Under the pieces are notes generated by a model that saw only the letters and a program-made list of their open reading frames with translations, was not told the origin of the DNA and did not search any database. The translations under genes were made by a program, and so were the position numbers. Shown here piece after piece: positions 36,501 to 64,000 of a stretch of DNA of 64,000 bases. This DNA is from Leptogorgia sarmentosa (lineage: Eukaryota): the NCBI GenBank assembly GCA_964658305.1, contig OZ210884.1:5146001-5210000 (forward strand). The letters are read 5' to 3'. The number at the start of each line of letters is the position of its first letter. The stretch's first letter is position 1.

Positions 36501-39500
36501 AGTTGCCTGTTCATGACAGGGATCAGTATCGAGGACGCATTCGTTGACATCTGAATAATAAAATAAATTTTCTGGTACTGTACTAACATCACTGCAGCTA
36601 GGTGAATGAAAATATTTCCTGGAATGTTTTCTATTGTATACCTTGACATCTAAATCCATCTCCAGTCCAACCACCGTTACAAGCACATGAATACGACCCA
36701 GGAGAATTGGTGCAAGTTGCCTGTTCATGACAGGGATCAGGATCGCGGTCGCATTCGTTGATGTCTGAAGCAGAAATAAAATATTTTTAGGTCGAACTGT
36801 AAGTATTCAACTTTTGTACGTTCAAACGTTTTGTTCTTTGTGTCCATAAAATTCTTGGTGTTTGTACATTGTTTATTCCATATCGTTAGTTAGGAATGTT
36901 TTGACAGTTATGGCGAATTGAAAATTAGTCCATAAGATTTTCTCAACTGAAGGCAATAATACAATTGCACGGCGGACCTGTGCAAGTACTGCCGTTCCAT
37001 GTGTATCCGTTGCTACAGAGGCACGTAAATGATCCTTGTGTGTTCCAGCATGTTGCTCCAGAATCACAGTTATGGGTACCACTAGTACATTCGTCAAAAT
37101 CTAAAAAGATTGTAGTTGCTTTTCTATCATATGCTGGATAGTTACTAAGGCAGGACGATTTTAGATTTGCGAAAATAATCACGCTATGGAAACCATTTCA
37201 ATATATATGGACGACGAAATTTGAGGCGCGTTTTTACACCGGCGGTTTTTGCAGCAGTGTTAGATTCGATTTTCTCCGTTTGAACTAGGTTACAGAGTTG
37301 AAGAGTTACAAATGTTCCACTTTATGAAATGTAAAAACAACTTTAATAAGTAATGTGCTCCTTTACTTCGTTGAAATGGAGATCAATCCTATAATCGCAG
37401 CAAAAACCGCCGGTGGTAGTAGCCTAAAGAAATGAATGCCGTATTGTTGTTGGACTGCATTCTCCAAAGATACTATTAGAGCTAGACCAAAATAGGGGAA
37501 TCACATTTTTCAAACAATGATCGTACCGCAATACTAACCTGTACATGTATGGCCATCTCCTGTGTAACCAGGATTACAAGAGCACGTAAATGATCCATTT
37601 GTGTTTGTGCATGTTGCTTCATCATGATTAGAATCGCAGCTATGGCTACCGCTGGTACATTCGTTAATATCTGAGAAATGATTGTAATGTTGCTGACAGA
37701 TACAGTGTAGTAAACAAACTGATTCAAATTTTCGACTGGAAAAGATTTCTCATCACTGTTTGAACAACTTATTTCAAACCAATGATATTTTTATTACATG
37801 GTTGAACATTCTGTTCACATATAGGAATGATACTGTTTTGAGATACTTAGTTCAGGGGTAAGAACGATGAAGATTTAGTTAAACCTCATGGAAATAGAAA
37901 GTTTAGAAACAATAATACCAACCTGTACATGTTTGGCCATCTCCTGTGTAACCAGGGTTGCACGCGCACGTAAATGATCCATGTGTGTTTGTGCATGTTG
38001 CTTCATCTGGATCAGGATCACAGTTATGGCCACCGCTGGTGCATTCGTTAATATCTGGAAAAGGATTAGAATTGCGGTGTTATCACAACAATATGAACAC
38101 GAGAACGCGAGGTTGGATTTGCTCTTCAAAATTCCCCGGAAAAAAAAGTCAATAGGAATATGGAATCTATGTTTTTATAATATTCTCGAAGACCATGATA
38201 CAATAATACCAACCTGTACATGTGTTTCCGTCTCCTGTGTAACCAGGGTTGCACGCGCAGGTAAATGATCCTTGTGTGTTTGTGCATGTTGCTTCGTCTG
38301 GATCAGAATCACAGTCATGGCTACCACTTGTACATTCGTTAATATCTGAAAAAAGATTGTAGTTGTTTGGTTACATGTTGCATCAAACTCAGCAATTCAC
38401 ATTCTTCTTTCGCTAGGATGACTCCTCAATTAGTTGAATATTTAATTTCAAACCAATGATATTTATTTCAACACCAGCTTATGGTATCTGCACGTTTTCG
38501 TATTCTTGAAATATTATACAAAAGCAACAAAAGATGGGATGTAGCAGAACATAACTGCACTATATCGCCCCATGTGAGGTAATCCGGAGGGCATTTGGAA
38601 TCCAGACCGCCCTCCTTGCTTCCGGATAACAGCCTCTGCATTCCAGATCCCCAACCTTGGTTCCGGATAACCATCTCTGAATTCCAGATCCCCAACCTTG
38701 GTTCCGGATAACCATCTCTGGATTCCAGATCCCCAACCTTGGTTCCGGATAACCATCTCTGGATTCCAGATCCCCAACCTTGGTTCCGGATAACCATCTC
38801 TCCATTCCAGATCCCCAACCTTGGTTCCGGATAACCATCTCTGGATTCCAGATCCCCAACCTTGGTTCCGGATAACCGCCTCTGGATTCCAGATCCCCAA
38901 CCTTGGTTCCGGATAACCGCCTCTGGATTCCAGATCCCCAACCTTGGTTCCGGATAACCGCCTCTGGATTCCAGTTCCCCAACCTTGGTTCCGGATAACC
39001 GCCTCTGGATTCCAGATCCCCAACCTTGGTTCCGGATAACCGCCTCTGGATTCCAGATCCCCAACCTTGGTTCCGGATAACCGCCTCTGGATTCCAGATC
39101 CCCAACCATGGTTCCGGATAACCGCCTCTGGATTCCAGATCCCCAACCTTGGTTCCGGATAACCGCCTCTGGATTCCAGATCCCCAACCTTGGTTCCGGA
39201 TAACCGCCTCTGGATTCCAGATCCCCAACCATGGTTCCGGATAACCGCCTCTGGATTCCAGATCCCCAACCTTGGTTCCGGATAACCGCCTCTGGATTCC
39301 AGATCCCCAACCTTGGTTCCGGATAACCGCCTCTGGATTCCTGATCCCCAACCTTGGTTCCAGATAACCGCCTCTGGATTCCAGATCCCCAACCTTGGTT
39401 CCGGATAACCGCCTCTGGATTCCAGATCCCCAACCTTGGTTCCGGATAACCGCCTCTGGATTCCTGATCCCCAACCCTGGTTCCGGACAACCATCTCTGG

Positions 39501-42500
39501 ATTGCAGATCCCTAACGTTGGATTTGGATTCTAAACCTTGAACTTCGGGTTCCTCTTCATGGACTCTGGATTCCTTCCATTATTACAATTGCAACCCCGC
39601 CCCCAACATACTTGAATTTCGCATTCTCGAAAGCCCAAAAAAGTTGGATTCCGTATTACCTGACATGGGCAAACTATGTATATTTCGTTCTTGTGGTATA
39701 TGAAATTCTTACTAATCATGTCCCTGATCTGAAATGATCTGAATAGCATGCATTGTTGCTTCCACAACGTGTCTTAGGAGAGAAACAAACTATGATCATT
39801 TGTTACCAACAGCTAAACTAGGTGAGATTGAAATCCAATGAACCATATCCATAAATATATGTCTTTCACAAAAAAGTTCAAAAGACGCCAATCTATGTTT
39901 TTACATATGATTTTGTCAAAGTTCTAAAACCTCTAATACCAACCTGTACATGTATGGCCATCTCCTGTGTAACCTGGGTTGCACACGCACGTAAATGATC
40001 CTTTTGTGTTTGTGCATGTTGCCTCATCTGGATCAGGATCACAGCTATGGCTACCGCTGGTACATTCGTTAATATCTGAAAAAGGTTTAGAAAAAGGGTT
40101 TTTCAAAAAGGCTGAGGGTTGCCCTGTTAACAATAACAAGACGAAGAACACTATGGAATTGGAAATAGATTATATTTATTTCAAAATTTTACATTCATTC
40201 CGAAGTAAGTGTGATTATTTTGTTTTGAGTAACGTTATTCAAAGGCTAGAGGGAGTATGGTTTATCTAAACATAACCGCACTATGTGCAGTTTGAACTTT
40301 TAGTGTATTGAATTTTTATTAGTAATGTACACACGTAAAATATCGCAACAAGATGTGTTGACAATCTTGGAGCAGGTCTGCTGTGGATTTGTCACAGCTT
40401 GTGCATTTTTTTACGTAGAGGAACATAAGAAGGAAGTGCTAATTCGTTCTTTTCAAAATTTCCGTGAACGTAACCTTTAAATAGCTTGGCTGCCAGTTTT
40501 TGTTATGATTTTCTCAAATTCCATGAAACAATAATACCAACCTGTACATGTGTTTCCGTCTCCTGTGTAACCTGGGTTGCACGCGCAGGTAAATGATCCT
40601 TGTGTGTTTGTGCATGTTGCTTCATCTGGATCAGAATCACAGTCATGGCTACCGCTGGTACATTCGTTAATATCTGAAAAAAGATTGTAATTGCTTCATG
40701 TACAAAGTGTCTCAAACAACCCAAAAGCATAGAAATTAACGCGTTGTTTGAAGTTAAATATTACTGAATCCACAATAACAAGATTTTTAAATCCCAGATG
40801 GAAAACAACGTACACTTTACAAAAAAATACAGTAGCTGTTAATCGCCTTTTCAATATTTTACGCATCTCTGCGTTCAGCTTAGTGGGAATTCAAATTCAA
40901 ACGATGGTGTATTTCAGCGACTATGGTTTATTTTGGAACTGCGCGTACTTACCATCACAATCAATTCCATCTCCTGTCCAACCTGGGTTACAAGCACATG
41001 AATATGATCCTTCAGTGTTGGTGCAAGTCGCCTGCTCATGACAGGTGTCAAAATTCAGTGTACATTCATCAATATCTATACAAAAAGGCAAAAGTGATAT
41101 CAGTTGTCATTTGGTAAAACTATGATTTGATTTCCCGAATGATATTAGTGCGAATTGACCCTATTGTACCTGCGGGCGTAGGAAAAACATCAAATTATTC
41201 ACAAATCAGTGTTCTCAATTTCTTCTGATTCTATTTTCTGTTAAACTTTGTCTGTCTGCTTTTTCTAATTTCGCTGCTCAGTTTCATATTTGCAAACTAT
41301 GCATGGCTTATCTTGCGCTTCTCAGGAAAAAGTCAGAAGATTTACGTCATCCATCAATTAAACGTTGTGATTTTATATTTCGTTATTTTATTTTTTTTAA
41401 TTTCGCTCAATGATAATTGGATAAGAGAGAAAATACTAATCACTAATACAACTATTTAAGGTGATGGGTTAGGAGCCCACCTAGTAACCACATGGACTTC
41501 TAGATAATAATATAATTTAACTACTATGTTTAACTATTATTCGTCCAGCGTTTTTGTAAACTGACCTTCACAAGTTGTTCCGCTTCCGGTATACCCAGGA
41601 TCACAAGTGCAACCGAAGGAACCTACTGTATTGGCGCATGTAGCGTTATCATCACAGTTGTGACCTCCCGTTATGCATTCGTTAACATCTAAAAGTTCAT
41701 CAATATTTATCACTGAGTAAATTTTGTCTTTCCAGTAAACGAAAAAAGGCAGTCAATTTAGATGTTCGGAATAATAATTTGTCAAGCCAGCCGAACGAAG
41801 TGACCATGCTATGTTCCGCATGTTTCTTCCAAATATTATCCTTACATACCTCCACAAACAGCACCAGTTCCTGCATATCCATTGTTACACATGCACTCAA
41901 ATGAGCCATCTGTATTTCTACAAGTTGCCAAGGTTTGGTGACAAAATTTAGGTAATAAACATTCGTTTACATCTGAAAACATAGACATAATTTCCTGCAT
42001 TACATAGAAAAAGGTGGTTTATATATTTCATTTCGTCGAGGAGATGGTCAGGATTAATCATGGTATTAATTTAATAACAACGAAAGCTGTATTGTAATCA
42101 TTCTTGTCAACCTTTGAACAATTTACTATGGCAAGATTGGCGTATTATTCATTGAAAAAATAACCATAGCAAGTTTTTTAAATCGGGAATTTTGCATGAG
42201 TTTATCTTTCCGAATGCTTTCATCGCATTGCTTCATGTTCACGTTAGAACAAGATGTTCATCGCCTTGCTTCACGTTAGAACAAGAAAACATTTACCATC
42301 ATCATCAATAATGCTAACTGTTGATCGACTTCGACCCAGTGTAACACCACTGACACTGTCGTCAAGGGTCAGCACGATGGAAAAAGTTTCGAATCCCTCG
42401 TAAATGTCATCTGTTTTTAACGGTATGGAATAAGAACAATCTCGATCTGCAGTTACTTCTGTTATATTGAACAAGATGTCTGCATCATCATAATCGTCCA

Positions 42501-46056: not shown

Positions 46057-48462
46057 CCCAGCAAACACACGACGTCGTTTCGACGTCGAATTTAGGTTGA
46101 TATTTGGTCGGGACGTCGATCGACTATATATCGACGTTGAATCGACGTCGTTATCCTGACCTCATATCGACGTCGACAAACTGACCTCGTTTCGACGTTC
46201 AATCGACGTCGTTATCCTGACTTAATATCGACGTCGACAAATTGACCTCGTTTCGACGTTCAATCGACGTCGTTATCCTGACTTAATATCGACGTTCAAT
46301 CGACGTCGTTAACCTGACCTGAACATTAAAACTAATTAAAAATATATATATTTACGTTTTGGGCCCTATAACTGACGTTAAATATGGATCAGCATATTTT
46401 AATTTATACCCCAACATACAATTGCATATCAACACTTTAGAAACTGATCTTTTGGGCAAAGTTCGTACCGACGACTACGTTTGCTATTTCAACCTTTTTC
46501 AACATGTGATTGATCGTATTTACTAAGACATTGATAGTTTTAAATAATTTTGAACTTTTGGGTAGGGTATTTGTATAGGAAATTACTCGGTTCGAGAAGT
46601 ATTGATGAAAAATTGCACGCGTGCTTGGACTTTGGCGAAATACGAATAAGGTGTCGCGCATTCGGCCCAAACTCGGTTCGGGCCGTTCGGCTCGGCATAC
46701 AATCGGCGATGACACGAGACTGAGAATCATGGGAAGTGTTGTCATAGACGCTCACAAACCGCGTGTATTCAAAATTTCACACAAAGGATTTCATTGCTTG
46801 TCGTTGTTCTTGTCTTTTGGGGATAATTTCCCGTTCATTTAGTTGATTTAATTCAAGACTACAGAAAAGGTTAGTATAATATGCAACTTGTTTATTTTTA
46901 TTTTGTGATATATCGCTTTATATTTCGTTCAATCAGTGTGCACTGCGATGCGCTTCGAAGTGCTCGTGCTTCAAAAGTGCTGGTTCAATAAACTGAACTG
47001 AAACACTAGTGATCAGCACTATAATTCACAAAATTAATCGCTTCTACACAAAGGTCAATTCTGTATCGTATATTCTTACTATGCTACAGAAAAGTCGATT
47101 CCTAGCTCTTCCTCGACAATGATGTGTAACGTTTGTGTATTTGATTAGTACGTAGTGTTACATTTTACAATCCAAATCAATCTAGTAGTTTAGTTTGACT
47201 TTGTCAGCCTGGTTTCATCAGTGATATATTAAAAACCGAGTATTTCTGCGTAGGAAATTTTTTGTAATTGATTTAGGCTGGTTTTCAATTTTTTCAAATA
47301 GAATTTCAGACAACCAATTATACAGACTGAGCATACAAAGAGGCAGTGTAAGCGAATTTTTTAGGGGGGGGGGGGGGGCTTTAAGCAAATAATCACTAGT
47401 TAGTAGGGTCATGCATAACTCATCAGGTTTGTTAAGCAAATAATCACTAGTTAGTAGGGACATAACTCATCAGGTTTGGCAAAAGCGATTAAGCAAACTG
47501 ATTTTTTTGATATCCTTTCAAAATTTGTTGACTTAAACTGGCTACAGTAGATCAAGACTATAAACCTGAACTACAATGCCATTGCTATGCTAATTCCATA
47601 CTGGCTGGCACACATATTGTGTTGAAGATGAAAATTGAGAATTACTTGCTTTCAATAAATCGATTAACAAAGCCATCAAAAAGATAACTGCTTAGTTATG
47701 TAGAGGGATATACTGTAGCTACATTAGAGAGACAGGCTTAATTAATTGATATTTTTCACTTATTAGAGCACCGAAAGTGATGTTTATAAAGCAATGGGAC
47801 AGATTTTAAAGTATACTCCGGACAGGAAAGGGGGAAGTAGAAAGTCTATCTATAATCGATCATTATGGGACATTTTTCATAATAAACATATAGTCCATAC
47901 ACAAGATTGATAACTGTAACTGCAGAAGATAGTATAATATATATAGGTCCAAATTGGAATCGCTTAATTACAGTTCGGTGTTTGTAAATAATCAAGTGTA
48001 CTAAAGTATATAATATGTAATATGTAAGATACTGACTGAGTTCGAAAATAAATATATCATCAAAACAAATTGCAACAGAAAATTTATTAATTTTGATCAA
48101 TTTGCAACTTCGTCGCATTTTCCAACGTACTATCGACGTCGAAAAGTCAACGTTGAATCGACGTCGAAACGTCAACGTTGAATCGACGTCGAAAGTCTAA
48201 CGTCGATTCGATTTGCGTTTTCGACCTGTTTTTCGACGTCGTATCGACGTCGAAAAGTCAACGTTGAATCGACGTCGAAAGTTCAACGTTGAATCGACGT
48301 CGAAAAGTTAACGTTGAATCGACGTCGAAACGTCAACGTTGAATCGACGTCGAAAGTCTAACGTCGATTCGATTTGCGTTTCCGACCTGTTTTTCGACGT
48401 CGTTTCGACGTCAGGTAGTAACGTCGATTCGACGTTGAATCGACGTCGGTGTGCTTACTGGG
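46057..48462. mobile_element. Non-autonomous EnSpm/CACTA(CMC)-like element, 2.4 kb, 2-bp AG TSD
   Basis: Termini cccagcaaacacac / gtgtgcttactggg, each flanked by AG; dense subterminal tcgacgtcga repeats at 46070-46320 and 48130-48450; no transposase ORF. Confidence 0.82.
47381..47478. repeat. ~50-bp direct tandem duplication
   Basis: ttaagcaaataatcactagttagtaggg..cataactcatcaggtttg occurs twice. Confidence 0.85.
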
Positions 48463-50307: not shown

Positions 50308-50434
50308 CATAGGAGTACGAGGCGGAGGGGGCAAGGGGAGCAAGGGGGGCAACTGCGCCTCGTGACATTTGCTACCCTCAACTTCGGGCAAAGATCTTTC
50401 TGCCCCCCTGAAAAAATGTCACCCGTTCCTCATG
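50308..50434. mobile_element. Degenerate short hAT-like MITE upstream of the KDZ gene
   Basis: cataggagtacga..G-rich..C-rich..ccgttcctcatg; imperfect inverted ends. Confidence 0.45.
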
Positions 50435-50565
50435 TTCTAAATCACATATAGTGAGAATTCTAAAATTTAGAACGTCGCATATATGTGACGAAGATGATCA
50501 TCTAGGCAGTCTGGCGCGGTTGATTATGAAAAAAAGCTAGGAACTAGTTACTAAAGAAAACAAAC

Positions 50566-53500
50566 ATGGCGGAAAAGCGGGAGCGACTATGCATCAAGCC
50601 AAAGTTAAAGCGTTTTAAAGCATGCAAAATTCGTGTTCATACTAAGTCAACTAGTGGGGAAAAAATAATAAGAAATGTTCGCTTAAGAGCAGAGAACTTT
50701 TGTCGCCGTAAAGAAGACATGTTTAGGAAAACCTCGTCGGCTGATAACGACAAGATTCAGAGTCAGACTGAGGATTTCGATATGTCTGATGATGAAGCTG
50801 TTGGGAAAGATGCCCAGCAAGACGGGCTCACAAAATACCTTTCCAGACGAGTTAAGGAGTATAATAGTTGGGAAGAAGTGCGCCAATCACTGTTACATGC
50901 TCGAATTGAAGAGGAAGCTTTTTCATCCGACACAATGTGCGTTGAATGTTGCAACAGTTTGGCCGTTTGCCGATGTATGGAGTGTGGTCCAAGACAATAT
51001 TTCTGTATGGACTGTGCTTCTGCACTCCATGAAAAACGAAATTATTTCCATGTTCTTCAAGCATTTAAGGTTTGTATTGATCCAGTACCGGTACGTCTAC
51101 ATAGTACATACAGACACAATAGTGTACAACACACATAAAACATAAAACATAAAACATGAAACATTGCAGTGATAATAGTATATGGCATATACGTTTTCAA
51201 GGTTCAACTTTATTAGGATTTCTCAGATGTACTTTGCGCAATACGTGGGTTGCATACAATTAAAGAACAACCTACATACAGTTTTGAAATTCCTAGGCCT
51301 GTGTTTTTAAATAAAATGTTCAGCAATATCTGTGCACATGCTTTGAATAGTAAACCAAGATGATGGAATTTGCAAACCATCACCAAATAGCAAAACAAGG
51401 AATTAATCATCTATATACTGTGTATATACATGTATTTAATTAATGTGTTGGGTTTTTCATAATTATGCAGGATGGATCATTTATCCCTTTAATGGTAAAC
51501 CATGCTGTTGTAGCCTTGGACCATCAAAGGAAATGTTGCTTTGCAGAAGGAAGGAATATCATATGTATTGATCAGTGGGGTAAGTTTTATTGATATTGTT
51601 CTATTGTATCAAAAAGACTAATACCTTTAGTACATTACTTCTATAAAAAAGCAAATGTACTTCTGTATTTTCAATAGTATGTTAAATTATAACAATTAAT
51701 GTAAACATGGCAGCAGAACTAGCAAGATGTGCAAAGATTGTATAAAATTCTCAATGGTAATAGAATTTCTAAAACCAAAACATAATAAGGTATGCATTTA
51801 GTAGATTATCAAAGGCAAAAGATAGACAATGAAATCTTATTGAAGAACAATGTCTTAAAGCCACCATAGAAACTTGATAATGATGCTATAGTGGCTTAGA
51901 TAAGTTGTTCTTTAATTGAAATTTTATTGCTACCGTACTAGTAGACTTTAAGCATTAGTACTGTAAATTTAATAATTGACCAAAATAGCAATAAGCTTGC
52001 TATTGAAAATATTTGGTTTTGCTGTAATTCACAATGCCTATTAAATCTCTTTTCAGTTATAACAGTAGGCAATTGTCATGGTGCATAAATCTTAGTTACA
52101 CTAAGTCTTGTCATCTGTAGGACGTCAACATGAGAAGACTGTTTTATTTTGTACTTGTGAAAAAGATGCTGTAACCCTTGTGAAATTGCATTTATGGCCT
52201 GGTTCAATAAGCAGACCTCTAGTAGCATTTCACTTCAGTTTGGTGACTCTCGCTGAACTATTCCTCTTGGAATGTCATGTTTCACTCAGGAAGTTCTGTG
52301 ATGTTTTGGGTTTGAGAAAGTCTACCATGCTGCCACATTGGGTAAGTATAATTCAGTGCTGGAAATGTGATGGCACCCTATGAGTAATTTAGTAATTGTT
52401 CATATCAATCACCTTTGGTCAGACAAGCACCATTGTGCTGCAATGTTGCTTAGTGGCCATACTCAATTTTTATTGCCTAATATGAGACGATTTTAGTTGT
52501 CAAATAGGGAAGCATTTAGTTGAAGTACACCCTACTAAAAATTTTAGTCACCTTATGCCAAAATTTTACTTGTCAGGGGAAATCCTACAGCTTAAGTTTG
52601 GTTGCAGTCTGTATCTATTGTGTTAGATTACTAACCTAATATGCAGTCTTGGATTTTTTGTTTCAGATTAAGAATATATACAAAATACTTAACAATGACT
52701 CTTTTGATGAATTCCGGTAATATCCTTTTTACAATTTCAAATGTTACATCTGCAGTATCTAAGAAATAGAACTTACTTGTACTAAGAAACACAACAACTA
52801 ACTGTTATAATTTCTAACCGGTAATAGTGAATATTTTAAATACCGGTACACATTGTGCAAATATTAAGCAGTGTCTGACTAGGAAACAAGGAGTCAATTT
52901 TCCTGACACAAATGTTCTTTTTCATTTGGTAAAGTGCACCCTTGCACATGCAGTGTACAAGACATGGCTTTGTTGTTCCACAAGTACCTTTCATGTTACT
53001 CTCTCCTCCCACTGTGTACCATAGGATATTGTACACCAGGATTTAAAGATTTTGCAACACCCATTGCTGTTTGTGTCTTTCAGATATCATCAACATTTGA
53101 TGAAATCAATGAAAGAAGTGAATGATCAGCTGTCTGAAATCATTTGTCCACTTTGTCCTGGGGTAAAAATACTGTAATGCTTACTAAAGCAAAGTCCAAT
53201 ATAGCTACATTCGCACAGGCTGCCACCGAGTGCTAGAGTGTACAGGTTTCCTGAAGTAAAAATACTGTAATACTCCAAAACTACACTCATGCTTATCTCT
53301 TGCAATTTGAATGTAGAATCAGAATGAAATCAATGCTGGCAGTGATGGTGATGATGATAGACTAAGTGAAACTCAAAATGTAGTAATTGAGTCAATGGAT
53401 GGATGTTTTGGACTGACAAGGAAAAAGTCAGCTGGAATAAATCATCTACCATCAAGACATGGTACTACTATGTTTGCAGACCAGGAATGTGTTGATCAAT

Positions 53501-56500
53501 TTGTGTTGGAATATTCAAAGGATGCGAAAGAAGCCCCAGGGGTTAGTTTTCTTCCCAATGAACTGTTAAAATAGATTGTGTTTAATGTATGTTGAATTCT
53601 CTGCAGGGAACGTGAATCGAGCCATACAGGTGGTAAAATTCTTAATTATAATTAATTAACTGGAAGAAACATATTTATTTTTTAAAGAACTGTAATGAAT
53701 TCAAATCAGGAGAAGTAAATAACATGTTACGATCAAAGGGAAGAAATGCACTATTTGAAGAAAAAGGAGTATTTGGCCGAGTGTGTAGGCATGAATTCCC
53801 CAAAGGATTCATTAACATGAAACATGGTGAAAGGTAATACGCATTGTACAATTTATGCCAATATCGTTTTTTATGGGATTACAGTACATTAAACTTGTAA
53901 GTAAATAATGTCAGTAGCCTACTTACAACAAAAAATAACTTGTCAAAACTGCATATTCTATAAAATTAAGCAATTTGTGTTTAGAATTGCGTATTCAGTG
54001 TTTGAAGTTGATCGACTTCTGGCTAGTTCAGATGCTACCACTAAAGTAAAAATCATGTATGACATCGGTTGTACCTTGTCAGCTCATTTGAAGGTCAGAT
54101 ATCTTCACTCTTAAAGTTGTTCAATTTTACAAACTGTACTTGTACGACCTTAAAAGTAAAAAAAAATTAATTTTAGAGAAACAACAGGCAAGATATTTTG
54201 GACAGAATTGATTTAGCAATTCCCGTGTTCCACTGTTATGGGCATAAATCGTCATGTCAGGTCTGTACAAATGTCTCAACAGAAATGCGGTGCACAAGAT
54301 AGACTTTGATTTATGTTGTGTCCTACAATACTGTCTATCATGTTGATCTTATTACTGCACTGCCAAAGCTGGCAAGTAGAACTCGTGATTCTTAGAATTT
54401 CATTGGGCTTAATCTGATAAACTTGTTCCTGAAATGTTAATGAGAAACTGCACGTGTGTTTTGCACTCGCGGTTCTTTGCCAAACACGCGTGAAATTTTG
54501 CATTAATACTTCTCGAACCGTGATGTCTTCCTATACGGATAGCATTGGTATAGTGAATGATACTTACCTTCTTTTGCAGATTGCGTTTAGTCCACGTAGG
54601 AACAACGGTTATGGTCTAACCGACGGCGAAGGAATTGAGCGCCTGTGGTCTTACTTACGAGGATTTTCCTCCATAACAAAAGAAATGACCTATGGACGTC
54701 GTATCGATATTTTAACTGATGCGTTGTTACATTACGGACAAAGGCGTTTGCAGCAATTCGGTTTGTTTTGTTTTATTAATTGATCAAATTCCTGTGCCGA
54801 CGAGATATGTGTAATATCGTGTAATATGTCGGTTATGTTTTGAACCATTGCATATACTGTAATTTACTTTGTCACGCTTCTGACACTGAACCTAATCAAA
54901 TTAAATACGATCGTACGATCCAAATTTGGCATCTTATTCGTCACTTAACTGCGTAGGTTATGGACGTCACTCTTACGTCGTATTTAATTATTGAATTTGG
55001 TTCGCGTATGAAGAGTTCAAAGTACTTATTTAGACGTATTTATGCCACAAGACTTATGCAGCTTTGATATATCACGAGTAAATATTTCCTCTTTATAGGG
55101 CCTTCACTGATTTCAAATTTGCAGAAGGCAAAGAACCTTATGGAAAATGCAACGTCACAGATGCAGGAGATTTTTTCAAATTTAACAGGTCTGTTCTACG
55201 AGCATGGGTTTGAATTTCAGACGCCTGCCTCCCCCCCCTACTCCAAATCTAACGAAATTTCTAAAGTTTAGAGTTCATGAACAAGTTGTCACGCGGTGAC
55301 CGCATGCAACCAGTCACGAGTGTGGCTCAGGCCTAATTCAAACAAAAAATTAATTATATAAAAATTAAATACTTTACTTTTTCAGTTGAGTATGATGTTA
55401 GTTTGGTTAAATCATGGATTGGGGAAGAACAGAAGGTGTTGTTAACTCGAGAAAGTAAGTTAAAATTTAAATGCATCTATTTGTAGTTAATATATTCATT
55501 TCATCAGCACATTTTGTACTATACAAACACTGGTGCCACATTGTAGTTATCACGCAGTCAATGTTCGATTAATAATCCCTTTTTCGAAAGTAATTCACCT
55601 AAATAGTTGTTGTGTTTCAGAAACCAAAGTGTTGCCATTATCTTGGGAGGCCAAGTACGTTCAAAATCTCTTCCAGCTGGAAGAGTTGAGGTTAGAAAAT
55701 ATGGTTAACATGTGCAACAATGTATATGTGTAGAAGTTCGTTCGTTTTTCATTTGACTATCTGTTTTAAGACATAACATCGCTGCAACAGAATCGGACAA
55801 ACATGACACCATAACAGATCTTGTGAAGAAACGAAAATCGTAAGCTCGTGTATCCCTTTTAGAGCCTTACTTACCTGTACTGGGTGCCCTCATTTCAACT
55901 GTTATTTTTCATTAAATAGTACTTTGAAAACTATTGTTTCGATCGAAAAAAGTCACCGACTGAAACAACGATGGAAATTTGGTGAGGCAATGTTCAATTC
56001 TGCTGCATTAACTGTTGAAAAAGCAAGGAGAGACCAAGCAATCGAACGGATATATGCACTGGCAGTCGAAAGGATGTTTTTGCTGTCTCTTAAGCGGAAA
56101 TACGCAGGTATACACCTACGCCTATGTATGCACAGTTGCAGCTCTTGTAGGAAATGTTTGAATAGGAGATAATTGTTGTCGTTTGAAGCAACTTTTCCGT
56201 CTCTGTAGAATATAGCAAAATCCGTACACTACACGATCATCATAATTATATACATTTAGAAGACATTCAGGAATTAAGTATTACCTAAGTATTACTTTGG
56301 ATCGACACCCTTCCGCGGTCTTCTGTTTTATATTGATGATGTTAAATTTATGAATGTTGTATTATCGTTTTTTGTTAGATGGCCAAGCGATAGCAGCTAA
56401 GTTATCAAAACAGATAACACAAAGGACCAACGGAATTAAAGTCTCTGTAGAGAAATATAACGCCTCCCTGTCTTCCTGGAAAGAGAAAGTAGATGGAATG

Positions 56501-57055
56501 CCTGAACCACTGAAATTCGATGACGTTAAGGATCCTCAGTGTAGCATATTTGCCGATTTCAGAGGAAACTCGTCCAATCAAGATGGTGTACCATTTTCTG
56601 TAAAGCGAAATGTGATTGATCTTTATCACTTGATTGAAAGATGCAAGGAAGAGGTGTCCTATTTAAATATGGAAATAGTGAGGCTTGTTAAATACTATGA
56701 AAACCGAGTATCTGTATTGGAAAGGTTTCTTCATTCACATGTGGACGATACATCTGTTTATATCAAAGGAATGAAGTGTGTTGCTAGAAGGCAAATTCGC
56801 GAGGAAAAAAATAAACTGTACGGTCTTGGCTCAATATTCAAGGACAATCTTCCTATGGAATTCCAGTCTTCTTTACCAGAGTGTGAATTTAAGTTCGAAG
56901 CAACTCGGACGCTCAATGTGTTCAGCGCGGAAATCTCCACTAACTCGGAAGAACTTGAAATAGTAAACAGTGATAATGATGATATAAACGACGAAGACCA
57001 TGATGAAGAATTTGCCCTTGTACTGGATCTCTCAGATGACGAAGAATATATTTAG
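50566..57055 (+). CDS. KDZ (Kyakuja-Dileera-Zisupton) transposase with N-terminal CxC3-like cysteine cluster; 16 exons, about 956 aa, apparently intact
   Basis: Exons 50566-51069, 51471-51579, 52121-52341, 52667-52716, 53084-53162, 53317-53541, 53688-53833, 53985-54093, 54177-54260, 54580-54760, 55099-55188, 55386-55454, 55621-55690, 55771-55839, 55920-56107, 56379-57055 join into 2871 nt of open frame. Motifs: CRCMECG..FCMDC..LH..H, CTC..LWPGS..P.VAF, CPLCP, SMDGCFGLTRKK, GVFGRVCRH..MKHGE, YDIGC, IPVFHCYGH..CQ, GYGLTDGEGIERLWS, KYADGQAIA. Confidence 0.92.
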
Positions 57056-57287
57056 ATAGTTTAAAAAGAGTTGTAAAAGGGGGCAAAAACATTTCCCTTG
57101 TGTTTTCGTGTTAGTGAATGCAGCGTCGACAAATGATTTCTTTAAATACATGATTTGTAATATTGATAATTTGTGCTGCATATTGTAAAATATCAAAACT
57201 GATTGTTTTGAAACTAAATTATTCACTCGTTTTAGCGGGGCCCCCAAATGAGCGACCCCTTGGAATAAGCGCCGCGTGTATCTAAAA

Positions 57288-57392
57288 CAGTACAGTAGCG
57301 TAGCCAGCCCGACGATTTAGTCCCGCTATGCATGTATCTTGAGTTAAAATACTGTGAAGCGGGACTAAATTGTCGGGCTGGCTACGCCACTG
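57288..57392. mobile_element. hAT-like palindromic MITE
   Basis: TIR cagtagcgtagccagcccgacgatttagtcccgct / agcgggactaaattgtcgggctggctacgccactg; near-identical 8-bp flanks atctaaaa / atctgaaa. Confidence 0.82.
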
Positions 57393-58952: not shown

Positions 58953-60540
58953 ATGGCAGAATCTTTAAATTCAACTGAGGGGTCCCATAAGGTATCGGAT
59001 CTTCGTCGTATACGTACACAATGGTAAGAAGCAAAATATGTGAAATATAATATTTGTTTTCTTTTGTGGAAACTATTATGGGTGGGAATGGTTGAAAATA
59101 CACCTCCTGAAGTTAGTTCTGTATGGCGAATATCTAGAAATAGAACTACTATTGTTTACATTTTTAGGTTGTCAATGTTATTCATTCAAGATATGTCATC
59201 TCGTGTAAAATGCTCGGAGGTATTGGCGGAGTTAACAAGCAAATTTGAAGGCATTTCAAAAAGAGAATGTGGCTTTGTTGTTCGTGAATGTTTTTCAGCT
59301 ACAAGAAGGATCCACAGTAACCACATTTATTACTACACAGGAATTCGTCGTATAACAACAAATGAATATTCAAATGAAGTACCAACACATGTGAATATAA
59401 ATAAGGGTATGTAATATAATTAGGTCATTTCATAAATTTTCATTTAATACCCACACACCCCTGTGGATGATAGTTCCTACATAAAATTTTCCCCTATACT
59501 CCTGACAGGAAAAAAATCAAATTCAAAGGCTGTTAACATTGTCACACCCCCACTCATTCAGAAATTAAGCTCGGGCAAACCTTTAGGAAATTTCATCCTC
59601 ATTTGGTGGGGTTTTGCATATCAAAAGGGAATGGCCCTATGTGCTACTTGCTGATACACGATTACTATTAGTGTCCCAGATAGCCTTCAATTATTTCAAC
59701 CGGTAGACTATCAATTTGTTTGTTTATAAAATATGCTAATATTGTTAAAACCAAAATTATTATTATATTCTTTCAGCTGAGGTGCAAGATTCATTATCCT
59801 CATCAGGCTCACTGCTATGTGAAATACCACGTTGCATGCATGTCAACCGATTTGAACTCCTACCTTCTCCAAATGGAAATGGACAAAGTACTTATAACTT
59901 TCCTAATGGCAATTTTAAACATCTTACGCTGCAGTACTTCAGAGGATATCCAGTTGCTGTTAGACAGTACCAAACATGCATTGTGAATGAAGCAAAAGCA
60001 TTGCTTAGTTTACCATCACATCATTGTTTTCCAGAGCTTATTGGTGTGTGTTGTGAGCAAAAGCCATATCTATTAATTACACTATTCTATGGCAATACAA
60101 GAAAAGAAGTGTATATGTCATTACAAGGGTTGTTGGAAAGTGATGTTAATGATCTTCAGCAATGGGCAACAATTCTGTTCAATGTTGCACAAGGATTGCT
60201 TTTGATGCATTCTTGTGGATTTGTGCATGGTGATCTCAAAGCTGAGAACATAATAATGAGGAAGAAAGAAAAGAACAGCAAACTGTCACAACCTGTGTTT
60301 TTGAACCTGGACAAGGTCAGGTCATTGGATAAGACAATTGACAGAAACATGTTTAACCTGGACTATCAGATGTTTGGCCTTTTGATGGAAATCGTAATTT
60401 TAAAACTTGGTAGTTGTATTGCAGATAGCAGACAGTTGTCTGCATTTGACAGTGTAGTGCAGGTGGTTAAAAAAATTCCTGATGACAGCACAGACTTCGC
60501 AAATGTTGTTTCTCAGTTGCAAAGAATTTCAAAAGTGTAG
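58953..60540 (+). CDS. 3-exon gene, about 357 aa: RFX-type winged-helix domain fused to a degenerate (pseudo)kinase domain
   Basis: Exons 58953-59023, 59168-59406, 59777-60540 splice in frame (1074 nt). N-term QWLSMLF...ECGFVVRECFSATRRIHSNHIYYYTGIRR (RFX-like); C-term FRGYPVAVR, EAKAL..H..FPELIGV, FVHGDLKAENI, DYQMFG. Confidence 0.75.
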
Positions 60541-60993
60541 ATGGAACAATGGTTGAACATCTTTGTGACTGTGATACACAAACTTCTCTACTACTTATTT
60601 TTTAATAAATTTTCTTCATATAATGATGATAATTCAGACTGATGCTTGTCTACACCAGGCAAGCTGAAATATCAGCTAGACCATCAGATTTGAAACCACT
60701 GATAACCCAGGGCTGATTCACAACACAACTGCATAAATTTATTACAATACATTTAAAAACCTTGCACCTACACTTGAATCATTTTACTGTACCATAATCA
60801 TATTAATCACAATAACATGTTTCATGGAGGGTTTTCTAGTGGTGAGGGTTTGCTGAACCCACCAAAACTTTCTTTTACCCCAATTCCCTCATCAATCCTC
60901 TCTCAATCTCCCTCTCTTCTCCAGCATTTTTTCACATAATTTTGAAATCAGGGTTGGAAGTAATTCTAAAAAAAATAAGGCATCATTAGTGTA

Positions 60994-61307
60994 CACACGG
61001 AAAAATGCACAAGTTGTGACAAACCTGCAGCAGACTTGCTACAAGATTGTTCCTAAAAAACGGATATCAAGTTGTGTTTGCACTGCTTGTTCCAGACTTG
61101 TTGACAAGTTGTTACAAACCTGCCGCAGACTTGTCACAAACTTGTTGATTATACAGACTTGGCAATTCAACAACTTGTTAATAGGTTGAGAGTGACAAGC
61201 TTGTAGCAACTTGTCAAAATAACAACATTGTTACAACTTGTTGACAGGCTTGTTACAAGCTTGTTGCGAACACATCTTGTTGACAAGTTGTGAGATTTTT
61301 ACGTGTG
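60994..61307. mobile_element. TA-flanked MITE with acaagttg/acaacttg internal repeats
   Basis: TIR cacacggaaaaatgcacaagttgt / acaagttgtgagatttttacgtgtg, TA on both sides. Confidence 0.82.
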
Positions 61308-61570
61308 TAGTCCAGAAAACAGCACTTTATGCCCAATGAAATTATCTTCCCCACTCCTGTTTAGAAAAATGCCCTTGGGAAGTTCTTTAGCAATAACTTT
61401 CAAGGATGTACATATGGAAATTATCTCAAAATGGCAACTACAAAAACATTAAAAAAAACCTAATTTAAGCAAACTATTCATAAAGCATTTCTTTACATTG
61501 CACGTACTGTACGCAAAATCGCATGTCCAGCATCATTACTCCTAGAGTGTTTCCAGTTCAGCCTTTCCGT

Positions 61571-63867
61571 TCATGTTCCAGTTTCCAGTTCAGCCTTTCC
61601 AAAACCATGTTTTTCCAAGCAAGTGAGGATACTTCTATGAAAAATACCAGATATGCTGGTCAAACTCTTGTCTTTCAGTGGCAACTTGCGTCGTATGAAT
61701 AATGGTACCCGACCAAGTATGTTCTTTTGCGTATCATTTAAACAGATAATGCTTATTCCATTCACAGATACTTTTTTCTTTCCAAGAACCAGTTCGTACA
61801 GGTTTTCGTTCCTCTTATTTAGCCAGTAGCCCCATATCTTCTGGTCATCACAAAGCTGCTTAACTTCTGATAACTTGCCAGGGTAATAAAAGAGCCAATA
61901 TTCTCCGGCAGATAATGTGTACGTAGGAAGAATATAGCCTTCGTGGTTATAACAGCTCTCGTGGTTCGTTTTTAATGAAATCCATGCATCATCACTAAAG
62001 TACTTTGCTTTGTTTCGGGACAGCAAGTTAAACTCAATCTCACTAAGATCAAGGTCTTGCACTTCCAGCTCGCTTTCCTCTATTAACCTTCTGCCGGATA
62101 CCACCTCCTTCACTAAATTATCTTCAATGATCTTTCGTAAAACTCTCTGTAAGGTTTCATCATGATCATTGCTGGTGGACAAACTATCACCACGTGGTTC
62201 AACATGAAATTCAATGCTATCTTGGAATCTCATAATGGCATTCACTTGATCTTTACCATAACTGCTTGGTTTCTTGAAGGTAATGCCAGCAGGTAACCCA
62301 GTAACTGTGAAGCCGCCTTTCAAGTAAGGTACTCTAGAACCTAGAATTCCACAAGCATTGCCTATAAAAAACGCATTCATGAAGTTAATCGCGGAACTGG
62401 TCTGCAATACTCGAGATCTTTTTCAGTATATTCTACTCTGTATTGCGAAATGGAGTAAATAGGTCTTTGTATATATCGTGCAATAGATATTTATATATAT
62501 TATATATATATTGCACGATATATATATTGATAGTTTCTCTTTGAATGTGATGTAGTGTGTTCTGTAGTTCAATTTAGTTTAAGTTGTCGTAAGGATTATT
62601 TTTTTACAAACATTTGAATGGCACGCATGATAAATATACTGAAAGTACGTATCCTAGACCTAAGCGATACGGAGTTATTTGACGTTTTTATTTAAAAACT
62701 CCATTTTTGTGTGTATAAATCACCCCTTACGAAAATTCAGTATACTTGCCAATTGTAGATATATTGTGCAATACCACTAGTTAAGAGGGCAATCGCCCCC
62801 CTGTTGGAGTTGGGTTAATTGCCATGACCAAGGCATGACCAAAGCTTTGCTATACACCACTTCATTTCCCAAAGCGAAAAAAAGAGAAATACTATTGGGT
62901 TACGCCCTGGTAGCACTCACTATATTTTTTATTGAACATATCTTGTACATCTTCACGAGTATATGCAGATTCAATGGCTTGTGAATCATCTAGAAAATAA
63001 ATATCAGTCCTATGTTATGAATGACCAACAAAGAAAATATCACATTAAGATATTACACACACCAAAATAATCCATGAACTTCAAGGGCACTGCCTCATTC
63101 TGAATCAGGAAATGGACTCCACTTTTCGATCCAAATTGTTTGACTCCCCCAGTTTCTGGCTCTACCATGAGAACAGCTAGTTCACACCCCAGGCTTTCAA
63201 GGTAAGATAACTAATTATCAAAAAAAATTCACAATTAATAATTCATATAGAAAACATTTACGAAGTGAATCTGAGAGTGTCCATGTGATGAGGTCTGTCG
63301 ATGCAATAATGGCCTTCACATCCATGTTGTATCAGATATACACAACCTATTGGGCCCTTCAGCTTGATGCAACATGGCTGCTCATGTTTTACTATTCTTA
63401 AATGCAGTTACCTTTTGCATGATGTAAAATGCAATTGTATGGCAGCTAGAAGTAGTTTTTCCACAAGTTAGGCCATTTGAAGTGTCTTATAGGAGGCTCA
63501 AAAATTGGGAACATATTTTAATATTTAATATATTTATGTTTACATATTGCAAGAAAAATTAACCTCCAAAGAAATGAAGAAATCCCCACACCAACTTATT
63601 AGGCAAACGACAACACAATGAGCCACGTTAAACTATTTCACTATTCTACTGATGAGTAAAAATGTTAACATACCTCTTTAATAAGATTCTTTTTCCCCTT
63701 GCTGATAAGTCTTCTTCTTTCACTTGCTGTTAACATTTCTGGGTTATATTCTTCAACTGTTTTAGCTTTATCTTGCCATATTTTTCTTTCTTCTTCACTA
63801 AGAGACTGCCATTTTGTAGCAACAAAGCTCATTTTCTCTGATTTTGATGCAATTTCTTTGCACTCAT
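61571..63867 (-). CDS. Gene (5' end beyond window): HMG box + TFII-I N-terminal-like segment + GTF2I (I-) repeat + unknown C-terminal domain
   Basis: Exons 63867-63674 (KMSFVATKWQSLSEEERKIWQDKA, HMG helices 2-3), 63210-63063 (LESLGCELAVLMV..FGSKSGVHFL..FMDYF), 62989-62921 and 62361-61571 (TREDVQDMFNKKYSNACGILGSRVPYLKGGFTVTGLPAGITFKKPSSYGKDQVNAIMRFQDSIEFHV); all phases compatible. Confidence 0.82.
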
Positions 63868-64000
63868 CTGAAAAGAAATATTTTTCATATTATTATTTTA
63901 ATATCTTTTCCTGGGCAAAAAGTTCATATGAAGAAAATGCTGTGGTCATATTCCCTACAAAATGTCTTGTAAAAGACTCAGGTGCATTTATTTAACAAAG

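What the first reader, a model, noticed from the sequence alone, without database searches (positions are those of the whole stretch)
61571..63867. TFII-I-like protein (N-terminal segment plus one GTF2I repeat) fused to an HMG box, next to a transposase
Seen only after splicing: REDVQDMFNKKYSNACG...VPY...V.GLPAGITFKKPSSYG..V.AI....IEF. This fits my recollection of the GTF2I repeat (LRKQVE.LFN.KYGEALG...VPY...I.GLP.GIPFR.P..FG...L.RIL....I.F). The preceding exon (ELAVLMV...FGSKSGVHFL...FMDYF) also resembles the TFII-I N-terminal region as I recall it (EVACIAV...GTERGRAFV...FVKYC). TFII-I family genes are generally regarded as vertebrate. Inference: a single-repeat HMG-linked relative associated with a mobile element could be the source of GTF2I/GTF2IRD1/GTF2IRD2.
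Basis: partly seen in the sequence, partly recalled or inferred. Interest (0 to 1): 0.85.

Follow-up and report, generated by a model that had tools for sequence, protein, structure and literature searches.

The report
Coral relative of TFII-I beside transposase
This is an expressed coral-type gene whose protein carries the DNA-binding repeat and the N-terminal domain of the vertebrate Williams-syndrome factor TFII-I, so that protein family is far older than vertebrates, and the gene likely serves the jumping-gene enzyme encoded 4 kb away.

Summary
The minus strand at 61571-63867 carries four exons of a spliced, expressed gene. All three proposed junctions are present in spliced contigs of three runs. 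The protein has a true GTF2I repeat: Pfam gives 33.6 bits against a cut-off of 27 on the half repeat in the last exon, and a paralog's model matches the solved repeat fold at Z 10-11.4. It also has a divergent HMG box. The exon before the repeat is homologous to the N-terminal domain of vertebrate TFII-I and GTF2IRD1. This is shown only through intermediate profiles; the direct comparison is not significant. On the model this domain looks MADS/SRF-like. The gene continues beyond the window's end. Relatives with the same unit occur in cnidarians, cephalopods, echinoderms, amphioxus, an ascidian and teleosts. A 2022 paper lists the fold as specific to jawed vertebrates. An intact, expressed KDZ transposase gene ends about 4 kb away, with a kinase-like gene between. 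No shared element ends or raised copy number could be shown, so the transposon link is inferred. This scan noted similar KDZ-linked genes before on other DNA; I used those notes as leads only.

The parts
63674..63867 (-). Exon encoding the rest of the HMG-like box (from the end of helix 1) and the basic long helix that leads into the N-domain. The upstream exon or exons lie beyond the window's end.
   Evidence: Spliced contigs cover 63674-63872 and then continue into sequence that is not in the window. A canonical AG acceptor lies at 63868-63869. I read the 30-letter loose end by hand and it continues the HMG helix-1 frame seen in the Dendronephthya paralogs. Pfam HMG families are weak here, E 0.003-0.02.
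63063..63210 (-). Exon encoding the N-domain (beta-hairpin plus two helices). It is homologous to the N-terminal domain of TFII-I and GTF2IRD1 and looks MADS/SRF-like on the model.
   Evidence: Joints at 62989|63063 and 63210|63674. An N-domain HMM built from 31 sequences that are not cnidarian-like scores the window's spliced protein at 44.3 bits over residues 50-110; the best shuffled decoy scores 7.3. Fold matches to MCM1 and SRF give Z 8.1-8.8 on the paralog model.
62921..62989 (-). Exon encoding the linker and the first helix of the GTF2I repeat.
   Evidence: Joints in 3 runs. It aligns with the first half of the repeat in the relatives.
61574..62361 (-). Terminal coding exon. It holds the second half of the GTF2I repeat and a roughly 190-residue C-terminal region found only in anthozoan relatives here. 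The stop codon is at 61571-61573.
   Evidence: Pfam GTF2I 33.6 bits. It is 36-50% identical to the last-exon ORFs of relatives. On the paralog model the C-terminal domain has pLDDT 82-93.
61400..61570 (-). 3' untranslated region. Its end was not fixed.
   Evidence: RNA-derived contigs reach 61508 and others cover 61400-61526.
50390..57334 (+). Intact, spliced and expressed KDZ (Kyakuja-Dileera-Zisupton) transposase gene. It converges on the gene above.
   Evidence: PF18758 41.8 bits at 54433-54783. Nine GT..AG joints lie between 53161 and 56377 in X4-X6, and contigs end at 57311-57334. The frame is open across the joined 3' exons, except for one stretch where a further intron has to be assumed.
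59776..60965 (+). Kinase-like gene between the two genes. Whether it belongs with them is unknown.
   Evidence: Pfam PK_Tyr_Ser-Thr E 7.9e-10, a partial match. RNA-derived contigs cover 59776-60965.
60700..61340 (.). Cluster of short dispersed repeats between the kinase-like gene and the 3' end of the TFII-I-like gene.
   Evidence: DNA-run depth is about 8272 against a baseline of about 450. Short copies lie at 4144-4192 and 40361-40410.

Best explanation
This is an expressed, spliced gene for a protein that joins an HMG-like box, a domain homologous to the N-terminal domain of vertebrate TFII-I and one true GTF2I repeat, and it likely works as the DNA-binding partner of the KDZ transposase gene that lies about 4 kb away.

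Shown:
- the exon structure and the transcripts;
- the I-repeat, by profile and by fold;
- the homology of the N-domain to TFII-I and GTF2IRD1 through intermediate profiles;
- the family's wide spread in animals;
- the presence of an intact, expressed KDZ gene in tail-to-tail orientation.

Inferred mechanism. The N-domain, which looks MADS/SRF-like, would pair two chains. The homeodomain-like module (present in full-length paralogs and presumably encoded beyond the window's end) and the I-repeat would read specific DNA. The HMG box would bend it. The anthozoan C-terminal domain would dock on chromatin or on the transposase. Other animals carry a chromodomain or zinc fingers at that position. 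Together these modules would bring element DNA to the transposase, much as accessory DNA-binding proteins do in other cut-and-paste elements.

The copy here is at low copy number, so it may be an immobilised remnant.
For: Gene and transcripts:
- Three GT..AG joints appear in 3 runs, and the contigs extend about 318 nt upstream of the window's last exon.
- The spliced frame is open for 399 aa.

I-repeat:
- Pfam 33.6 bits against a cut-off of 27.
- 20 of 20 family members match.
- A family profile hits 10 solved GTF2I-domain chains at E 1e-12 to 2e-6.
- Fold Z is 10-11.4.

N-domain:
- An N-domain-only HMM from 44-47 single-repeat proteins hits the N-terminus of 16 of 16 vertebrate TFII-I or GTF2IRD1-type proteins at 11.7-34.7 bits. 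The best of 6400 shuffled decoys scores 6.9.
- A vertebrate-only HMM hits the cephalopod proteins at 36-37 bits.
- An HMM built without cnidarian-like rows scores the window at 44.3 bits.

Four DNA-binding-type folds on the paralog model (mean pLDDT 79.8):
- homeodomain Z 8-10;
- HMG box Z 7-7.8;
- SRF/MCM1 Z 8.1-8.8;
- GTF2I Z 10-11.4.

Link to KDZ:
- PF18758 scores 41.8 bits.
- The KDZ gene is spliced, expressed and open in its 3' exons.
- Its transcript ends at about 57.3 kb, and the partner's 3' end lies near 61.4 kb.

Signs of mobility in relatives:
- At least 6 diverged paralogs occur in Dendronephthya.
- Clusters at 90% identity hold 4 loci in Cololabis saira and 3 in Actinostola.
- 7 of 25 scanned relatives end in a chromodomain.

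Background. KDZ elements are known to carry extra genes of unknown function: Cryptococcus KDZ1 has two (10.1101/2024.08.15.608186, passages read).
Against: - No inverted terminal repeats or target duplications enclose the two genes. The right end would lie off the window, and the inverted pairs found are short dispersed repeats.
- DNA-run contig depth over both genes is near baseline, 300-450 against about 200 to the left, so neither gene is multi-copy at 95% identity or more.
- A kinase-like gene and two high-copy repeat insertions lie between the genes.
- The last-exon tree splits into a hexacoral-like and an octocoral-like clade. The wider tree roughly follows animal phylogeny. Both fit a vertically inherited host gene.
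- Octopus has one conserved locus across three species.
- None of the 6 metagenome contigs with relatives shows KDZ similarity, but they are only 1-4 kb long.
- None of the 184 stored relatives is fused to a KDZ or kinase segment.
- Binding, bending and dimerisation are untested.
Confidence: 0.45

Rival explanations
1. It is an ordinary host transcription factor gene of an ancient animal family, the single-repeat relatives of TFII-I. A KDZ element happened to land, or to be retained, nearby. The protein would regulate host genes as a dimeric, multi-module DNA binder.
For: - Depth is at single-copy level.
- The gene is expressed and intact.
- The trees roughly follow species relationships, with vertebrate TFII-I and GTF2IRD1 sister to an ascidian single-repeat protein.
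- One conserved locus exists in three Octopus species.
- The region is rich in repeats, so transposon genes nearby are not rare.
- A kinase-like gene separates the two genes.
Against: - An intact, expressed KDZ gene within about 4 kb and tail-to-tail is unlikely for a random gene. I could not compute the chance because no genome is held.
- Several recent duplicates occur in Cololabis and Actinostola.
- At least 6 paralogs occur in Dendronephthya.
- The C-terminal modules vary (chromodomain, zinc fingers), as in transposon proteins.
Confidence: 0.4
2. It is a decaying copy without function, transcribed only in passing.
For: - Directly upstream of the 63867 exon lies an in-frame stretch that resembles HMG helix 1 and ends in two stop codons.
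- One X5 contig runs unspliced through 63843-64000.
- The window's row has a long end branch of 0.88 in the tree.
Against: - The spliced contigs bypass that stretch and join an upstream exon that keeps the frame.
- 399 codons are open across four exons.
- The conserved columns of the family are kept.
- The same spliced form is present in three samples.
Confidence: 0.04

Closest known systems
Vertebrate TFII-I family (GTF2I, GTF2IRD1, GTF2IRD2)
   Same: - It has the same I-repeat: it passes Pfam PF02946, and a paralog's model matches the solved human and mouse repeats 1q60, 2dzr, 2dn5, 2ed2 and others.
- Its N-terminal domain is homologous and sits directly before the first repeat.
   Different: - It has one repeat; the vertebrate representatives show 4 to 7.
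- It has an HMG box upstream, and in full-length paralogs a homeodomain-like module as well. I saw neither in the vertebrate representatives.
- It has a C-terminal domain found only in anthozoan relatives.
- It falls in a cnidarian clade outside the bilaterian group that holds the vertebrate proteins, so it is not an orthologue.
Single-repeat TFII-I-like proteins of other animals (Octopus, Sepia, Holothuria, Anneissia, Branchiostoma, Phallusia, Poecilia, Cottoperca, Cololabis; database entries, mostly 'uncharacterized')
   Same: - They share the same unit of N-domain plus one I-repeat: 48 rows hold it whole.
- Weak homeodomain and HMG matches lie upstream in several of them.
   Different: Their C-termini carry a chromodomain (7 of 25 scanned) or C2H2 zinc fingers (2 of 25) in place of the anthozoan domain.
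Accessory genes of KDZ transposons
   Same: The gene lies beside an intact KDZ transposase gene. KDZ elements are large and carry extra genes: Cryptococcus KDZ1 is about 11 kb and has two genes of unknown product (10.1101/2024.08.15.608186, passages read).
   Different: No shared element ends or mobility are shown here. Kojima 2025 (PMC12730594) contains none of the words HMG, GTF2I or TFII-I. I recall that Iyer et al. 2014 link a divergent HMG gene to these elements, but that paper is not held, so this is unchecked.
MADS-box (SRF, MCM1, MEF2) DNA-binding and dimerisation domain
   Same: The long helix, beta-hairpin and following helices of the N-domain superpose on MCM1 (Z 8.8, 84 of 85 residues), on SRF (Z 8.6 and 8.1) and on MEF2 (Foldseek probability about 1, E about 0.05).
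   Different: No sequence match: Pfam SRF-TF matches 0 of 20 members at E up to 10. The Z values are only just above the level the tool calls common.

Membership tests
GTF2I-like repeat (Pfam PF02946; SCOP d.288) | Profile match above Pfam's curated cut-off | tested here: met
   The window's last exon scores 33.6 bits against a cut-off of 27, with only half the repeat present. Relatives score 49-51 bits. 20 of 20 members match.
GTF2I-like repeat (Pfam PF02946; SCOP d.288) | The fold of the solved I-repeats | tested here: met
   The test used the model of the Dendronephthya paralog P0002, not the window's own protein. Z is 10-11.4 with rmsd 2.0-5.7 over 72-88 residues against 10 solved GTF2I domains.
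TFII-I protein family (GTF2I, GTF2IRD1, GTF2IRD2) | The family's N-terminal domain placed before the first repeat | tested here: met
   Met by transitive profile evidence: 16 of 16 vertebrate proteins hit, cephalopods at 36-37 bits, and the window at 44.3 bits. The direct score of the vertebrate-only HMM on the window is 0.1 bits, which is not significant.
TFII-I protein family (GTF2I, GTF2IRD1, GTF2IRD2) | Several I-repeats in tandem | tested here: not met
   The window's protein and its cnidarian relatives have one repeat. The vertebrate representatives have 4 to 7.
TFII-I protein family (GTF2I, GTF2IRD1, GTF2IRD2) | Orthology with the vertebrate genes | tested here: not met
   The cnidarian rows form their own clade. 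The vertebrates group with an ascidian protein inside a bilaterian clade (quick tree, midpoint root).
HMG box | Profile match and L-shaped three-helix fold | tested here: inconclusive
   The window's exon scores 16.5 bits against a cut-off of 25.4; helix 1 is off the window. At family level the best Pfam E is 3e-5, in 4 to 6 of 20 rows. A family profile matches TFAM and UBF boxes at E 4e-4 to 4e-3. Fold Z is 7-7.8.
Homeodomain | Three-helix homeodomain at the N-terminus | not testable with these tools
   That part of the window's gene lies beyond base 64000. In the paralogs a family profile matches 2da4 at E 2e-4 and the fold gives Z 8-10 with rmsd 1.6-2.
MADS box (SRF-type) | SRF-TF sequence profile | tested here: not met
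   0 of 20 members match at E up to 10. There is only a fold resemblance, Z 8.1-8.8.
Companion gene of a KDZ transposon | A KDZ transposase gene beside it | tested here: met
   PF18758 scores 41.8 bits. The gene is spliced and expressed. The gap between the two genes is about 4 kb.
Companion gene of a KDZ transposon | Both genes inside one pair of terminal inverted repeats with target duplication | not testable with these tools
   The gene runs off the window and no genome is held. Repeats inside the window give no candidate ends.
Companion gene of a KDZ transposon | The gene pair recurs at other loci or in other genomes | not tested
   Six metagenome contigs of 1-4 kb were too short to tell. 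Earlier notes of this scan claim such pairs on other DNA, but I did not check them.

The most novel reading that the evidence does not exclude
The TFII-I family (GTF2I, GTF2IRD1, GTF2IRD2) descends from the DNA-binding helper gene of KDZ cut-and-paste transposons. That helper would be a four-module protein: homeodomain, HMG box, MADS-like dimeriser and I-repeat. This coral locus would preserve the ancestral arrangement, with the helper still beside its transposase.
Probability: 0.25. Interest if true: 0.85.

Novelty: new variant of a known kind. Interest (0 to 1): 0.6.

Why it matters
TFII-I and GTF2IRD1 are the transcription factors most often tied to the behavioural and craniofacial features of Williams syndrome. 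Their I-repeat fold is listed in print as an invention of jawed vertebrates (PMC9541633, passage read).

This locus and its relatives show that the unit of N-domain plus I-repeat predates the split between cnidarians and bilaterians. They also show that this unit sat originally in a single-repeat protein with HMG and homeodomain-like modules. That gives a concrete ancestor for the family and simple single-repeat proteins on which to study DNA recognition by the repeat.

If the KDZ link holds, it would add a well-known human gene family to the list of genes tamed from transposons. It would also assign a function to the unexplained extra genes of KDZ elements.

Tried and rejected
- No whole genome is held for this window, so copy number, the 5' exons and element ends could not be searched.
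- The look-up of sequencing runs listed no RNA holder. I treat runs X4-X6 as RNA-derived only because their contigs are spliced.
- I first read the in-frame stretch at 63896-63991, which resembles HMG helix 1, as part of the exon. I rejected this because two stop codons follow it, no GT donor is present, and the spliced contigs go to another upstream exon.
- Search for element ends. The inverted pair 40361-40410 / 61001-61050 is a short dispersed repeat that also lies at 4144-4192. The 57-nt piece shared by 46573-46628 and 54480-54536 lies in a KDZ intron and also at 15099-15151. Neither gives element ends.
- Metagenome scan: 6 relatives among 307 pattern matches, on contigs of 1.1-4.2 kb. tblastn with the window's KDZ and kinase ORFs gave only chance-level hits, E 0.15-0.82.
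- Viral contigs: 0 of 51 pattern matches confirmed.
- C-terminal domain. The Atlas search gave no usable hit. No match to it is listed in the two VIA tables, which the tool says barely test that part.
- An N-domain HMM built only from cnidarians, scored against the vertebrate N-termini, gave -1.8 to 10.6 bits. The best decoy scored 8.7, so this is not significant.
- Papers. Searches found no description of invertebrate I-repeat proteins or of an HMG/I-repeat partner of KDZ elements. One search was badly framed and uninformative. Kojima 2025 has none of the search words. Iyer et al. 2014 is not held. I did not open any supplements.
Full report
**What is there**

The window is eukaryotic DNA of about 36% G+C. 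The finding lies on the minus strand.

Pfam places the GTF2I-like repeat (PF02946) on the last ORF. The score is 33.6 bits against a curated cut-off of 27, E 4.9e-8. The match covers profile positions 36-73 of 75, which is exactly the half of the repeat that this exon can hold. HMG-box families match the first ORF only weakly, E 0.003-0.02.

**Transcripts**

No run is on record as RNA. Even so, three small runs (X4, X5, X6; three samples, one study) hold contigs of 1270-1588 nt that skip 62361-62920, 62990-63062 and 63211-63673. Each skipped stretch is GT..AG on the minus strand. The DNA-like run X1 is colinear with the window.

The contigs continue for about 318 nt past the exon at 63674-63867 into sequence that is not in the window. 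I read the 30-letter loose end by hand and joined it at the canonical acceptor (AG at 63868-63869). It continues the frame with the helix-1 residues of the HMG box that the Dendronephthya paralogs carry at this point.

The stretch at 63896-63991 looks like HMG helix 1 and ends in two stop codons. It is intron.

The four exons give an open frame of 399 codons that ends at the stop at 61571-61573. The gene's 5' end lies beyond the window.

**Relatives and architecture**

Word-indexed searches found only cnidarian proteins plus unnamed ORFs:
- with the last exon, 2 proteins among 2465 candidates;
- with the full-length paralog P0002, 7 among 3825;
- with a profile of N-domain plus repeat, 21 among 7992.

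The named hits are six Dendronephthya loci, Xenia, Exaiptasia, Desmophyllum and one primate TFII-I fragment. All 20 aligned members match Pfam GTF2I.

A profile of the four full-length Dendronephthya paralogs gave three kinds of match to solved structures:
- 10 solved GTF2I-domain chains at E 1e-12 to 2e-6;
- a homeodomain (2da4) at E 2e-4, over residues 12-65;
- TFAM and UBF HMG boxes at E 4e-4 to 4e-3, over residues 84-168.

An AlphaFold model of P0002 built on a 20-row alignment has mean pLDDT 79.8. Fold comparison recognises four modules:
- homeodomain, residues 2-72, Z 8-10;
- HMG box, residues 85-151, Z 7-7.8;
- a MADS/SRF-like unit, residues 135-224: MCM1 Z 8.8 with 84 of 85 residues aligned, SRF Z 8.6 and 8.1, MEF2 by Foldseek;
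- the I-repeat, residues 220-300, Z 10-11.4.

A confident alpha/beta domain at 314-486 has no listed match, but those tables barely test it. Pfam's SRF-TF model matches none of the 20 members. The MADS likeness is therefore a matter of fold only and is of moderate strength.

**The N-terminal segment**

That search found 282 clusters at E up to 0.001 and 103 at E up to 1e-10.

Of the 164 proteins then stored, 48 hold the whole unit of N-domain plus I-repeat. Sixteen are vertebrate-type multi-repeat proteins that also carry the family's N-terminus. Source names confirm that samples of these are GTF2IRD1 of a chimaera and a cichlid, and TFII-I of caecilians and birds.

The tests gave these results:
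- An HMM built only from the N-domain columns of 47 single-repeat proteins (or 44 without the cephalopod trio) hits the N-terminus of 16 of 16 vertebrate proteins. The hits lie just before repeat 1 and score 11.7-34.7 bits. The best of 6400 shuffled decoys scores 6.9.
- An HMM built only from the vertebrate N-termini scores the cephalopod proteins at 36-37 bits, a crinoid protein at 14.5, Xenia at 11.9 and an ascidian protein at 9.4. The best of 6750 decoys scores 8.6. The window's own protein scores 0.1, which is not significant.
- An N-domain HMM from 31 rows that are not cnidarian-like scores the window's spliced protein at 44.3 bits (residues 50-110) and the 17 other cnidarian-like targets at 17.5-53.9 bits. 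The best decoy scores 7.3.

The homology of the window's exon to the TFII-I N-terminal domain is thus established by transitivity, not directly. One caveat applies: 'not cnidarian-like' was defined by score, because many rows carry no name.

**Spread in animals**

Source names place single-repeat members in these groups:
- cephalopods: Acanthosepion and three Octopus species;
- echinoderms: Holothuria and Anneissia;
- amphioxus;
- an ascidian, Phallusia;
- a sea anemone, Actinostola;
- teleosts: Poecilia, Cottoperca and Cololabis.

Of 25 such proteins scanned, all match GTF2I at E up to 0.01 and 22 reach the cut-off. Seven end in a chromodomain and two in C2H2 zinc fingers. Several show weak homeodomain or HMG matches upstream.

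A quick tree of N-domain plus first repeat (62 rows, midpoint root) separates a cnidarian-like clade from a bilaterian one (SH-aLRT 97). It puts the 15 vertebrate rows in one clade (98) with the ascidian protein as sister (88). A careful tree of the last-exon region places the window inside the octocoral-like clade, next to Dendronephthya LOC114523901 and its kin. The highest identity there is 49%.

One paper lists the GTF2I-like repeat fold as a shared derived character of Gnathostomata (PMC9541633, passage read). A survey of tunicate transcription factors counted one GTF2I protein in one tunicate and none in amphioxus (PMC8122590, passages read). The known mis-naming of hAT transposons as 'GTF2IRD2-like' concerns the transposase part and not the repeat (PMC10641963, passages read).

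My searches found no paper that describes these invertebrate proteins. Automatic database names such as 'GTF2IRD1-like' already exist for some of them.

**The transposase**

ORFs on the plus strand between 50.5 and 57.1 kb belong to a KDZ transposase gene (PF18758, 41.8 bits). It is spliced and expressed in X4-X6: nine GT..AG joints are listed, and contigs start near 50390 and end at 57311-57334. Its 3' exons join into an open frame, apart from one stretch where one more intron must be assumed.

A kinase-like gene lies at 59776-60965. High-copy repeats lie at 57.3-58.7 kb and 60.7-61.3 kb. Both sit between the KDZ gene and the TFII-I-like gene, which converges on it.

DNA contig depth is about 190-200 left of 50 kb, 300-350 over the first half of the KDZ gene and 420-450 from 56.6 kb to 64 kb. 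These figures fit haplotype splitting to the left of 50 kb. They show no multi-copy state for either gene.

I found no candidate element ends. The right end would in any case be off the window.

Relatives on six metagenome contigs of 1-4 kb show no KDZ similarity, which says little. Clusters at 90% identity with 4 loci in Cololabis and 3 in Actinostola point to recent duplication of some family members.

**Reading**

The molecular identity is well supported. This is a single-repeat member of the TFII-I superfamily with extra DNA-binding modules.

Its role is inferred. I put the helper-of-KDZ reading at about 0.45 and an unrelated host transcription factor at about 0.40.

Earlier notes of this scan describe KDZ elements on other DNA with a partner gene that holds an HMG box and a TFII-I-type repeat, and a sea-urchin relative that shares the N-terminal domain. 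I used them as leads. I tested the N-domain claim myself. I could not test the claim that the gene pair recurs.

Noticed in passing
window 16500-36800 (minus strand): A very long run of near-identical units, each encoding a calcium-binding EGF-like module (the DINECD...C.C..GW.GDG..C pattern). Dozens of overlapping ORFs of 148-290 aa recur about every 214 bases. It looks like a giant tandem exon array or a recently expanded repeat.
   Followed up: no
window 38470-39580: A G+C-richer block (0.46 against 0.36) that is open in all three minus-strand frames for about 340 codons. It is built from a repeated unit of roughly 40 codons, so it is probably a satellite and not a gene.
   Followed up: no
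window 46070-48460: A roughly 2.4-kb stretch bounded by inverted arrays of a 25-nt motif rich in TCGACG. Its depth in the DNA run is about 50 to 370 times the baseline of about 200 by bin. It looks like a high-copy non-autonomous DNA element.
   Followed up: partly
window 63896-63991 (minus strand): An intronic stretch, in frame with the exon at 63867, resembles HMG-box helix 1 and ends in two stop codons. It may be a decayed duplicate or an alternative exon. One X5 contig runs unspliced through 63843-64000.
   Followed up: partly
window 60965-61500: One X5 contig joins 60965 to 61500 with three other letters between, skipping the repeat cluster. This may be an insertion polymorphism or an artefact of contig building.
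   Followed up: no
window 59749-60540 (plus strand): A kinase-like ORF that keeps the HGDLK..N catalytic-loop motif but matches only part of the kinase profiles. It is transcribed. It could be a pseudokinase or cargo of the neighbouring element.
   Followed up: partly
protein P0019 (unnamed ENA record): A hexacoral-like relative whose C-terminal half is replaced by sequence resembling a GIY-YIG endonuclease. This is my recalled reading, not tested. It suggests a retroelement inserted into that copy.
   Followed up: no
protein P0043 (Anneissia japonica, named 'zinc finger protein 665-like'): A crinoid protein with a homeodomain-like start, four I-repeats and a long C2H2 zinc-finger array. Multiplication of the repeat therefore also happened outside vertebrates.
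   Followed up: partly
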